From a plasmid: 64,000 bases of DNA. Where the stretch lies: NCBI RefSeq assembly GCF_056712565.1, contig NZ_JBWXXM010000002.1. One strand, 5' to 3'. This document shows positions 39,001 to 42,000 of the stretch, piece after piece (positions within the stretch are counted from its first letter, which is position 1; every line of letters begins with the position of its first letter). A program made the position numbers.

Positions 39001-42000
39001 TCATGCAACAGGTAAAACATGAGTACTCAAAAGCAACTTTCCAGAACAACCGGCACTGAACGTATGTTTAAGGAAGAGCTGGCGTTATCCTTAATTTGTT
39101 GGGTTTTCACCAGTCCATTTACCAACTGGACCGATAAAGTCTTCAGTGGTATTGAAGTTCCGTCTGAAGGACCGTCAACATTACTGGGTGAGGCTGAAAA
39201 ATTCTTTCGTTTTGTCGTTAATGAAGAAGGCTACGACGCAGGAAGGGCTGCTCTTGGTCTTGACCTATGTTGTTTTTCACTTCCGTCGTGTTTGTTCCCG
39301 GACGCTGCCCTGTCTGAGGAAGAGGTTATGAGTAAGTTAACCGGAGAAGTTATCCATGGGATTCTTCTTTCCTTACCTGAATTTATTGATATGCCAGAAG
39401 TGCTCGCTTACCAGGTCAGGGATGAAATTCTTGCTTTTAACACTCGCTGTGGAGACGGGATCTTTCATGGTTGGAACACGGCTTCAGAATTGTGGAAGTT
39501 TGAAATCTTTCCCCGCACCACCATCATGATGCAGCATACTTCGGCAATACATTAAAATTAGGCGGGGCAGAATGCATAAAAAACTTTTTCTTCTCGAATG
39601 GAAACCCTGTCAGAGCCGCGTATGGGCCGGTTGGATGGCCCTGTGGTTGACTATCAGTTTTCTGATGTTATCTGCCTTGCTTATGACAGATCATCTCCTG
39701 AACAAAGTCATCCTGCCGCCAACATGGTTGTTGATCTGGTTTTCGCCAATGCTGGGGTTTTTGATAAAAGTTCGCGTCGTCGAAACTCAACATTTCCTGG
39801 AGCATGACCTCTGTGTTGCAGGTTTCTCTTTTTACCGCTGGAAGAGGTTAGTTTCTCCCGGGCTTTGGTCAGTTGACTGTATAAATGGTCGTTTTCGCCT
39901 CAATCGGATCACCCAGGTGGGTAAGACTATCCACTATCCATGGCGTCTCCATTATCATCCTTTGTTCATGAGCCCTATCGAACATAAATCGCATGCTGTG
40001 AAAGCTGTTTCAAAATGACTTCTTTAGAGGTTTACATGACATTTATGTTCTGCAAGGTCAGCCAGGGCAGCAAAATTGATTTGAAATAACATGAGCCTGG
40101 AGAAACGTATGAGTTATGACGATTTGCCCTATTTTCGTGACCAGATTCTGGAACGTATCGACTCGCTTAAGTGTTTTCTTTCGAACACCCCCCCGCTGAT
40201 GGCAAACCTGATGACTGTCTCCACCGTATCTCGAACAGAAGAGCGACTGAAGCAGGTTAAACCCATCAGGGTTAGTGTTAAAGACGATGCTTCGGTTGAG
40301 GAAATTATTCAGGCACTTACTGACATCTGTGTGGATGACATAGAGTCATTAAGTCATGATTCCACCAAAGTGACCACTAAATACCCGGGTCTTATCATTG
40401 TCCCAGAAAGAGCAGATCTTCTCGAAAGCTTGATCACATCTATAAATGAAGCAAAAAATGATTTTGCTGCGGCAATGAGGCGTATCGATAATAAAAAGAA
40501 TGTCCGTTTTGATAAAGTGCACAAGAAGCTCCCGGGCCTTGTCGCTATGCACTCAACAAGAAATGTCCTTTTCATCAAGTCCCAGCTTAAAAAAGTTACT
40601 TTTTCATGGCGGCTAAACCGAAACCAGGAAGTTAAAACAGCAGAGCAACTTGTGAGTTTGTTGGAGCGCAGGAGAGCCTCAGAAGTAAAAAATGTAGCAA
40701 CTACCAATTTGAATGTCGTGTCTAATATCGATAAGGCTTTACACCGTCTTGAATTTCACCCACTGAAGCAGGGCGAATCTTATCGCCTTTGTCGAACTAA
40801 CTCTTTCCCTGTTCCGATTGCTCACATTTTTGCATTTAGGCCTGAAGGGCAGGAACGAAACGGGAATAAATATGCTGAGACTGATTATTCAGTAGTAAAA
40901 GCATCCTTGCCCATTTTCGCAGCAGGCAACATACCTCAATTAAAAACGCTCTCTGACTGGGCTCCTGAAAACAGCCAGGGCCCGTCCAACCAACGGAAGC
41001 TGAGCCTGAAATATACAGAACTCGTGCCGGGGGCTGAGCTGGGCATTTTCATTGTCAGCCCCGAAAATTAAGGAACAACAATGCAATGGATTTCCACAGC
41101 CAGCCAGAAAATCGATGAGCGTCTCTATCGTGTCTGCGTCTGGGTAAAAAAATATCACGCTGATGCGATTAACCGCGTTGTGCTTACCGTTGATCTAAGT
41201 AAAGCCCGACATGACCCTGACGAGGACCAGGTAAGAGCAGAGCTGCTGTGCGGCCATTATTTTTTGCTTCGTAAGGAAAACGCTTCGAACTCTGCGCCTG
41301 ACGATCAAAAGTTTGCTTTCCTGCCTGACGGGCGCAATCTGTGTTGGCAGACCGCAACCCCGGTGCTTCAGCATCTCCTGCTCAATAAAAACGTTCCTGA
41401 GTCGCTGAGGTTGCTTACGGACTACATACATATGCGTCTGGCCAGGCTGACAATGGTACCAATGTCCGGAACCATCATGAACGAGGCTCTGCTGGACAGC
41501 ATCAGCTGGGTTAAGGTGGATTTGACCTACTTCTGGCAGTACGAACAGCTCAGCTCTCATCTGGGACCCATCCAGATAACCCACAAGGCACTAGTACGCT
41601 TCGGGCATCTGGCAAAGAATGATGAAAACTCCAGTGCCATAAGAATCCTGCGTCAGCGTCTGTCTTCAGAATTCTTACAAGAATTTCAGATGGCTGAGGA
41701 TGAGCTAAAGCGCAAACAGTCGTTGATGGGCACCATGGACGTGAAAATGCTGTTTCATGCTCATTACCCCAGCCAGAAGATGCTGGTGGCTCGATATAAA
41801 AATGGTTGGGTAATGGTGGATTGTTTTCTGTTTCATCATACCAAACCTAAGAAAAAAGCAAAAAACAAAACTACTGTGGCTAAGCCTCAACTTAAAGAGA
41901 CTAAAAGAGAAGGGAGTGAAAATGGAACTGGGCATTATGGTGTGCATCGTGTTGTTACTCTCCGTGGCGGCGGCGTGGATCAGTAATAAGACAGTTGATT

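What the first reader, a model, noticed from the sequence alone, without database searches (positions are those of the whole stretch)
40091..41071. Plasmid-borne Tus-like protein
A 326-aa protein shows local resemblance to the E. coli replication terminus protein Tus. A plasmid copy implies plasmid-specified fork arrest and predicts Ter-like 23-bp sites elsewhere on the replicon.
Basis: inference. Interest (0 to 1): 0.5.

Follow-up and report, generated by a model that had tools for sequence, protein, structure and literature searches.

The report
Known Tus homologue on IncHI2 plasmid
The gene is a real, full-length but very divergent relative of the E. coli replication-terminator protein Tus, carried on the backbone of IncHI2 resistance plasmids; it is already annotated and published as such, and no E. 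coli-type Ter site goes with it.

Summary
The ORF at 40091-41071 (+) exists. The likely true start is ATG 40109, giving 320 aa. The window is IncHI2 plasmid backbone (R478-like). The same protein is annotated "DNA replication terminus site-binding protein" in over 1,000 plasmid records, and an IncHI2 paper already names it tus.

The resemblance to Tus is full-length, not local:
- Pfam PF05472, E 6.5e-19.
- AlphaFold model (pLDDT 94) matches only E. coli Tus in the PDB, TM 0.75-0.80.
- Profile-profile probability 99.4%.
- The cytosine-lock residues F140, H144 and G149, plus E49, K89 and R232, are conserved. E47 and R198 are not.

The predicted Ter sites were not found. No E. coli-type Ter lies above chance in the window, in R27, or near tus in eight related lineages. 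R478 has one sub-threshold site, outside the window, that lacks the essential G-C at position 6. A Pseudoalteromonas plasmid with an equally divergent Tus does carry an inverted Ter pair beside tus, so the scan can detect such sites.

tus sits in a deeply conserved block with an uncharacterised downstream partner gene, a tyrosine recombinase and hha.

In passing I found a 13-bp palindrome, AAAAGTWACTTTT, about 200-350-fold over-represented on IncHI backbones. One copy always lies inside tus.

Verdict: already known. Its function is inferred and its target site is unknown.

The parts
   Evidence: ORF. Pfam PF05472 E 6.5e-19. Tus fold TM 0.75-0.80. RefSeq WP_000119427.1 'DNA replication terminus site-binding protein' at these coordinates. 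SD GGAG 6 nt before 40109.
41081..41986 (+). OrfX, 301 aa, uncharacterised. It starts 10 nt after the tus stop and is found next to tus in every relative examined.
   Evidence: ORF. 78% identical in IncHI1/Photorhabdus. 23% identity, E 1e-10, to the gene after tus in a Klebsiella IncHI1B plasmid. Same position in L020, L024-L026. No Pfam, NCBIfam, PHROG, PADLOC or PDB match. AlphaFold model poor, pLDDT 56.
41922..42266 (+). small ORF (about 114 aa), last gene of the array; its homologue is annotated DUF4231 in an Enterobacter plasmid
37740..40018 (+). five small upstream ORFs (101, 196, 85, 178, 148 aa) that with tus, OrfX and the small ORF form a probable eight-gene operon
   Evidence: Tight same-strand spacing. 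Strong terminator-like hairpin at 37546-37570 before the array, and no promoter-like site directly upstream of tus. Order conserved in relatives. The operon is inferred.
40592..40602 (.). copy of the over-represented palindrome AAAGTWACTTT inside the tus coding sequence (codons K-V-T-F)
   Evidence: kept at the same nucleotide position in IncHI2, IncHI1, Photorhabdus, Lelliottia, L022 and L023. The centre base varies synonymously (GTT/GTA).
42288..43463 (-). tyrosine recombinase/integrase gene, convergent with the tus array; its position is conserved in most relatives examined
43634..43846 (+). hha (Hha/YmoA family) gene, conserved neighbour beyond the recombinase
   Evidence: L001 coordinates + 17999

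Best explanation
The ORF encodes a genuine, full-length, highly divergent member of the Tus family (about 16-17% identical to E. coli Tus). It is a fixed backbone gene of IncHI2 plasmids. It most likely binds a specific DNA site as a monomer and acts as a polar contra-helicase barrier, trapping a flipped-out cytosine in a conserved pocket as E. coli Tus does. Its target is not an E. coli-type Ter sequence and remains unidentified. It is made from a long operon together with a conserved partner of unknown function (OrfX), next to a tyrosine recombinase and hha. This could form a termination/resolution module. Shown: homology, fold, pocket conservation, synteny, and absence of a canonical Ter. 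Inferred: DNA binding, fork arrest, the operon, and any link to the recombinase.
For: Homology: Pfam PF05472 E 6.5e-19; NCBIfam Tus model NF002810 E 2.6e-14. Structure: the AlphaFold2 model has pLDDT 94 and pTM 0.88; its only significant PDB matches are Tus-DNA complexes, E about 1e-19, TM 0.74-0.80, aligned over the whole length. hhalign gives 99.4% over residues 3-299. Of the six residues listed as key for fork arrest in Table 1 of PMC10331603, E49, F140, H144 and G149 are conserved; K89 and R232 are also conserved. The gene is intact and syntenic in plasmid lineages down to 23% identity, which indicates purifying selection. It is annotated as Tus in over 1,000 records and named tus in PMC5923156. 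Plasmid-borne tus genes are a recognised class (PMC6549158). A plasmid Tus only 23% identical to E. coli Tus has a clear inverted Ter pair next to its gene, so divergent plasmid Tus proteins can be true Ter binders.
Against: No E. coli-type Ter site is above chance in the window, in R27, or near tus in eight relatives. The single R478 candidate lacks G-C(6) and is not significant. E47 and R198 are not conserved. The DNA-reading beta-hairpin region carries a 4-residue insertion, and A173, K175, V234 and Q237 are replaced. The score is far below NCBI's equivalog cut-offs: 53 vs 323 bits, and 21 vs 178 bits. A truncated 214-aa allele is common, with 249 member sequences, so the protein may be dispensable. 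tus lies 56 kb from the R478 replication genes and 12 kb or more from the GC-skew switch points. I found no experimental study of this protein.
Confidence: 0.55

Rival explanations
1. It has the Tus fold but has been repurposed. It would be a sequence-specific DNA-binding protein acting as a regulator or roadblock for something other than vegetative replication forks, for example transcription of backbone operons or DNA processing during conjugative transfer. It might act at the abundant palindrome AAAAGTWACTTTT, which shares the hexamer GTAACT with the Ter core.
For: No canonical Ter is present. The gene lies in a long operon between the Tra2 transfer genes and a recombinase. The palindrome occurs 47 times in R478, 42 in R27 and 14 in the window, against about 0.2, 0.2 and 0.04 expected. 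One copy lies inside tus in all nine motif-bearing lineages, at three or four different positions. Plasmids with a canonical Ter pair (L021) lack the palindrome, and vice versa.
Against: The motif is symmetric, which suits a dimer, whereas Tus is a monomer on an asymmetric site. The centre base shows no replichore bias: R478 has 15A:9T on one side and 14A:9T on the other. Lineage L026 keeps tus and OrfX but has no copy of the motif. The motif stays invariant while Tus drops to 25% identity, which is unexpected for its reader. The lock-pocket residues would have no role in a plain regulator.
Confidence: 0.2
2. The plasmid Tus acts on host DNA or host-type sites. It would bind chromosomal Ter sites, or the single Ter-like site near oriT on IncHI2, to supplement or interfere with host termination. 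This would also let the plasmid use Ter-type barriers in hosts without tus.
For: R478 and pAMSH1 carry a site with an exact 13-nt Ter core (AAGTTGTAACTAA) at R478 188981. PMC5923156 mentions a 'potential ter site'. R1 and R6K show that plasmids exploit Tus-Ter (PMC10331603).
Against: That site is not significant against shuffles, lacks G-C(6), and is not conserved in IncHI1. Several aligned DNA-contact positions differ from E. coli Tus. The usual hosts (E. coli, Salmonella, Enterobacter) already have Tus.
Confidence: 0.1
3. The similarity to Tus is a chance local match and the ORF is an unrelated hypothetical protein.
For: A single-sequence phmmer search against the PDB gives only E 0.08 over 88 residues.
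Against: Pfam, NCBIfam, hhalign and Foldseek all agree on full-length homology, with E values from 1e-14 to 1e-21.
Confidence: 0.01

Closest known systems
E. coli chromosomal Tus (PDB 1ECR, 2I06, 4XR0-3; Pfam PF05472)
   Same: Same two-domain fold over the whole length (TM 0.75-0.80). E49, F140, H144, G149, K89 and R232 are conserved. Similar size.
   Different: Only about 16-17% identical. E47 and R198 are not conserved. There are insertions of 4 and 12 residues in the C-terminal half, and A173, K175, V234 and Q237 are replaced. No Ter site lies upstream of the gene and no canonical Ter is on the replicon. The gene is the sixth in a plasmid operon rather than a monocistronic autoregulated gene. 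It falls below NCBIfam equivalog cut-offs.
'Mobile' plasmid-borne tus genes (Galli et al. 2019, PMC6549158), e.g. Pseudoalteromonas rubra pMBL6842
   Same: Plasmid-encoded PF05472 proteins of gamma-proteobacteria, about as far from E. coli Tus as this one (23% identity). tblastn finds Tus relatives on 2,770 of 72,556 PLSDB plasmids.
   Different: pMBL6842 has two inverted Ter-like sites (GTATGTTGTAGCCATTTT, with G6) about 90 bp apart immediately upstream of tus, forming a minimal fork trap. The IncHI-type plasmids have nothing comparable.
Ter sites of plasmids R6K and R1
   Same: Plasmid use of the Tus-Ter barrier to control fork direction and prevent multimers or rolling-circle replication (PMC10331603).
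   Different: Those plasmids carry Ter sites and rely on the host Tus. This plasmid carries a tus gene but no recognisable Ter site.
Bacillus subtilis RTP
   Same: Functional analogue: a polar replication fork barrier protein.
   Different: Unrelated fold (PF02334), a dimer on bipartite sites. No similarity was detected here.

Membership tests
Tus / Ter-binding protein family (Pfam PF05472) | Significant match to the family profile | tested here: met
   PF05472 E 6.5e-19, 68.5 bits, residues 20-217. All homologues carry a precomputed PF05472 hit. hhalign vs the E. coli-like clade gives 99.4%.
Tus / Ter-binding protein family (Pfam PF05472) | Full-length two-domain Tus fold | tested here: met
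   Model pLDDT 94. Foldseek to 1ecr_A E 2.4e-19, TM 0.75/0.78, 327 columns; only Tus entries are significant.
Tus / Ter-binding protein family (Pfam PF05472) | Cytosine(6) lock pocket residues F140, H144, G149 (I79 is from my own knowledge; it is not in the cited table) | tested here: met
   F, H and G are identical; I79 aligns with V. Residue list from PMC10331603 Table 1.
Tus / Ter-binding protein family (Pfam PF05472) | Residues that slow the helicase or stabilise the trap: E47, E49, R198 | tested here: inconclusive
   E49 is conserved. E47 aligns with T and R198 with V, with a Lys adjacent. The alignment around R198 lies in a variable helix region.
Orthologue (equivalog) of chromosomal Tus as defined by NCBIfam | Score above the curated cut-off of NF002810 (323 bits) or TIGR02648 (178.3 bits) | tested here: not met
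   53.1 and 20.9 bits.
Tus-Ter replication fork trap system | Cognate Ter site(s) on the same replicon with the GNRNGTTGTAAYKA core and G-C at position 6 | tested here: not met
   Window: consensus with 1 mismatch gives 1 hit vs 1.97 expected; PWM best 12.8 vs shuffle maximum 14.1 +/- 2.0. R478: best 17.7 vs 16.6 +/- 2.0, with T at position 6. R27: 17.3 vs 15.6 +/- 1.5. A site with a different sequence cannot be excluded.
Tus-Ter replication fork trap system | A Ter site next to the tus gene (TerB-type, autoregulatory) | tested here: not met
   The upstream 72-bp spacer has only TATGTT in common with Ter. The inverted repeat there is not conserved in a 90%-identity relative. In IncHI1-type relatives tus overlaps the preceding ORF. 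Positive control in pMBL6842.
Tus-Ter replication fork trap system | Orientation-dependent arrest of replication forks or DnaB | not testable with these tools
   Needs 2D gels, marker-frequency analysis or helicase assays.

The most novel reading that the evidence does not exclude
The IncHI-type Tus homologues would not be classical terminators. Instead they, or their invariably linked partner OrfX, would read the hyper-abundant palindrome AAAAGTWACTTTT, which shares GTAACT with the Ter core, is present at about one site per 5 kb of backbone, and always has one copy inside tus. This would form a plasmid-wide system of helicase or polymerase roadblocks or a global regulon. If so, it could resemble the plasmid ancestor from which chromosomal Tus-Ter was domesticated.
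Probability: 0.08. Interest if true: 0.7.

Novelty: already known. Interest (0 to 1): 0.25.

Why it matters
IncHI2 plasmids are major carriers of mcr-1, ESBL and metal-resistance genes. The idea that chromosomal Tus was domesticated from plasmids (Galli et al. 2019) makes plasmid Tus proteins relevant to the origin of replication fork traps. The gene itself is already annotated, so the finding adds nothing new. What this check adds is that the IncHI clade keeps the cytosine-lock pocket but has no recognisable Ter site. It also always travels with an uncharacterised partner gene and a recombinase. The target and role of a protein present on thousands of clinical plasmids are therefore still unknown, and they could be determined with simple binding and fork-mapping experiments.

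Tried and rejected
1. Ter consensus and core searches in the window, and a 10-site E. coli Ter PWM with shuffles on the window, R478, R27 and eleven related loci. Nothing was significant except the positive control pMBL6842.
2. The R478 188981 Ter-like site. It is retained in pAMSH1, but it is not significant, lacks G6, and its intergenic region does not align with IncHI1. I rejected it as evidence for a plasmid Ter.
3. Phylogenetic footprinting of 18-mers across four lineages around tus. It found conserved non-coding blocks elsewhere but no Ter candidate.
4. The inverted repeat 39980-39995 / 40035-40050 just upstream of tus. It looked like the pMBL6842 arrangement, but the arms diverge non-compensatorily in the 90%-identity relative L022, so it is probably chance.
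5. GC skew as a terminus locator. R27 switches at about 64 and about 150 kb; R478 has its minimum near 0 and maximum near 164 kb. tus is not at a switch point, and skew is confounded by gene orientation and accessory DNA.
6. The palindrome as a polar Ter. I rejected this because it is symmetric and its centre base has no replichore bias.
7. OrfX function: no Pfam, NCBIfam, PHROGs, PADLOC or PDB-profile match, and the AlphaFold model is too poor to search.
8. Literature. The R27 paper and the Neylon review were not held at the PMC ids tried, and I did not locate the R478 paper. Searching for the palindrome sequence found nothing relevant.

Full report
**Observation.** The window has an ATG-to-stop ORF of 326 aa at 40091-41071 on the + strand. 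A second in-frame ATG at 40109 has a GGAG 6 nt upstream. It is also where every homologue begins and is the start RefSeq uses in pD90-1. The product is therefore probably 320 aa. R478's annotation keeps the longer form.

**The replicon.** The 5.5 kb around the ORF matches 1,418 PLSDB plasmids, 686 of them at 99% identity or more, mostly conjugative IncHI2 plasmids of Escherichia, Salmonella and Enterobacter. The window is collinear with R478 from about position 15.8 kb. It runs through parAB, the Tra2 transfer genes, a long array of unknown genes, tus, a tyrosine recombinase, hha and the tellurite cluster.

**Is it Tus?** A plain sequence search of the PDB gives only a marginal local hit to E. 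coli Tus (E 0.08, residues 89-176). More sensitive methods show homology along the whole protein:
- Pfam PF05472, E 6.5e-19.
- NCBIfam Tus model NF002810, E 2.6e-14, but 53 bits against a curated equivalog cut-off of 323.
- A profile search of 1.84 billion representatives found 380 relatives, many aligned end to end.
- An AlphaFold2 model built on 61 of them has pLDDT 94 and pTM 0.88. Its only significant PDB matches are four Tus-DNA complexes, E about 1e-19, TM 0.74-0.80, over about 327 columns.
- hhalign of the IncHI clade against the E. coli-like clade gives 99.4% probability over residues 3-299.

Identity to E. coli Tus is about 16-17%.

**Functional residues.** A recent review (PMC10331603, Table 1) lists six residues as key for fork arrest. 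E49, F140, H144 and G149 are conserved. The last three form the pocket that holds the flipped cytosine C6. E47 aligns with Thr and R198 with Val. K89 and R232 are also conserved. A173, K175, V234 and Q237 are replaced. The hairpin after R232 carries a 4-residue insertion, and there is a further 12-residue insertion. The pMBL6842 Tus also differs at several of these positions yet has E. coli-like Ter sites, so these substitutions alone do not prove a changed specificity.

**Ter sites.** The Ter consensus with one mismatch gives 1 hit in the window against 1.97 expected, and GTTGTAAC gives 2 against 1.43. A PWM built from the ten E. coli Ter sites scores real Ter sites at 21.7-29.5. The TerB sequence was checked against MG1655.
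- Window: best score 12.8, against a shuffle maximum of 14.1 +/- 2.0.
- R478, whole plasmid: best 17.7 at position 188981, GATATTTAAGTTGTAACTAATAT, against 16.6 +/- 2.0. The site has an exact 13-nt core but T at the essential position 6. It lies near oriT, outside the window, and is kept in pAMSH1. Its intergenic region does not align with IncHI1 plasmids. It may be the 'potential ter site' mentioned for pSTM6-275.
- R27 (IncHI1): best 17.3 against 15.6 +/- 1.5, inside the tricarballylate genes.
- The 21-41 kb around tus in the IncHI1, Photorhabdus, Lelliottia, Klebsiella IncHI1B and Enterobacter loci and in L024-L026, and the 7 kb held for L022 and L023: nothing above 14.

The same scan found two inverted sites in Pseudoalteromonas rubra pMBL6842 (scores 16.8 and 15.1). 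They share GTATGTTGTAGCCATTTT with G at position 6, lie about 90 bp apart, and sit directly upstream of a tus gene only 23% identical to E. coli's. They are oriented as a minimal fork trap. So the method can detect Ter sites of equally distant plasmid Tus proteins, and their absence from IncHI plasmids is informative.

**Context.** tus is the sixth gene of a tightly packed same-strand array from 37740 to 42266. A strong terminator-like hairpin precedes it at 37546-37570, and there is no promoter-like site directly upstream of tus. The operon is inferred.

The next gene, OrfX (41081-41986), starts 10 nt after tus. It is more conserved than Tus between IncHI2 and IncHI1 (78% vs 59%). It is still recognisable after tus in a Klebsiella IncHI1B plasmid whose Tus is only 25% identical (E 1e-10). 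It has no match in any library tried, and its model is unreliable.

The following block recurs in all relatives examined, down to 23% identity, though not every locus keeps every gene: DUF3150, VWA, toprim, several ~300-aa paralogues, small ORFs, tus, orfX, a ~110-aa ORF, a recombinase on the opposite strand, hha, and a CoiA_N-like gene. In four lineages (R27, L019, L020, L024) a replication initiator gene lies 3.6-7 kb beyond tus on the hha side. In IncHI2 the rep genes are 56 kb or more away. GC skew puts the switch points at about 64 and 150 kb in R27 (tus at 162 kb) and at about 0 and 164 kb in R478 (tus at 56 kb). Skew is confounded by gene orientation and accessory DNA.

**What is already known.** RefSeq names the protein 'DNA replication terminus site-binding protein'. 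[quoted passage not shown] Galli et al. 2019 describe plasmid-borne 'mobile' tus genes and propose that chromosomal tus was domesticated from a plasmid (PMC6549158). tblastn finds Tus relatives on 2,770 of 72,556 PLSDB plasmids. I found no experimental work on the IncHI protein in the held library. From memory, the R478 genome paper (Gilmour et al. 2004) also noted a Tus-like gene; I could not check this.

**Interpretation.**
- Most likely (0.55): a functional Tus-family barrier protein with a diverged, unidentified target. It could be part of a termination/resolution module with OrfX and the recombinase.
- Alternative (0.2): a Tus-fold protein with another DNA-binding role.
- Alternative (0.1): it acts on host-type Ter sites.
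- Chance similarity is excluded.

A common truncated allele (214 aa, 249 member sequences) suggests the gene is not essential for maintenance.

**Seen in passing.** A k-mer comparison of R478 and R27 revealed the near-palindrome AAAAGTWACTTTT. The 11-mer AAAGTWACTTT occurs 47 times in R478, 42 times in R27 and 14 times in the window, against about 0.2, 0.2 and 0.04 expected.
- It is confined to backbone DNA.
- It is symmetric apart from the centre base, and that base shows no replichore bias.
- 5 of the 14 window copies are intergenic.
- It is present in 9 of 10 lineages carrying the tus block. It is absent from L026 and from pMBL6842.
- In each of the nine lineages one copy lies inside tus, at nt 484/523, 710 or 817. 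In the IncHI1/2 clade that copy is kept through synonymous change.
- It shares GTAACT with the Ter core.

I found no description of it, and its binder is unknown.

**Verdict.** Novelty: already known. Interest is low to moderate. The useful residue is that the target site of this very widespread plasmid Tus is unknown and is not E. coli-like.

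Noticed in passing
window 2761, 4835, 7801, 11888, 13071, 15435, 21958, 22637, 29083, 32828, 36399, 40592, 44037, 59706 (11-mers); also throughout R478 (L003-L008) and R27 (L014-L017): The near-palindrome (G/A)AAAAGTWACTTTT(C/T) is about 200-350-fold over-represented on IncHI backbones: 14 copies in the window vs 0.04 expected, 47 in R478, 42 in R27. 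It is rare in accessory DNA (three R478 copies in the 80-150 kb accessory span, all at its edges). It is present in 9 of 10 lineages with the tus block, always with one copy inside tus. The binder is unknown, and I found no description in the held literature.
   Followed up: partly
L021 (Pseudoalteromonas rubra pMBL6842) 19544-19566 (-) and 19659-19681 (+): Two inverted Ter-like sites (GTATGTTGTAGCCATTTT, with G at position 6) lie about 90 bp apart immediately upstream of a plasmid tus gene that is 23% identical to E. coli Tus. They are oriented as a minimal fork trap.
   Followed up: partly
window 31630-31950: An intergenic block of about 300 bp downstream of the toprim-domain (DUF7146/Toprim_3) gene contains several 18-mers conserved with 0-2 mismatches in the IncHI1 and Lelliottia loci (two of the five are not kept in Photorhabdus). 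It could be a small RNA, a promoter/operator or a priming signal.
   Followed up: no
window 41081-41986: OrfX (301 aa) is always adjacent to tus, even where Tus identity falls to 23-25%. It has no detectable family or reliable structure model, and its C-terminal 50 residues are basic and predicted disordered.
   Followed up: partly
R478 188981-189003 (L006 38981-39003), outside the window: A Ter-like sequence, GATATTTAAGTTGTAACTAATAT, with an exact 13-nt Ter core but T at position 6, lies about 2 kb from the oriT region. It is conserved in IncHI2 but not alignable in IncHI1.
   Followed up: yes
window 32500-37506: A run of five consecutive genes of about 290-320 aa (ORFs 32500-33378, 33434-34384, 34453-35373, 35440-36378, 36544-37506), all annotated hypothetical. 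A similar run recurs upstream of the tus array in every related plasmid. They look like paralogues but I did not compare them.
   Followed up: no
R27 156848-157603 (L017), L019 17827-18711, L020 26871-27755, L024 14645-15727: In four lineages a replication initiator gene (RepFIA, RepB-type or Rep3) lies 3.6-7 kb beyond tus on the hha side. This recalls the origin-adjacent tus of Pseudoalteromonas chromosome II. It is not the case in IncHI2.
   Followed up: partly
R478 190751-190821 (L006) and R27 108436-108568 (L016): Clustered direct and inverted copies of AAAGTGACCCTATG lie in the intergenic region next to mobI and the relaxase genes. They are probably oriT-associated repeats.
   Followed up: no
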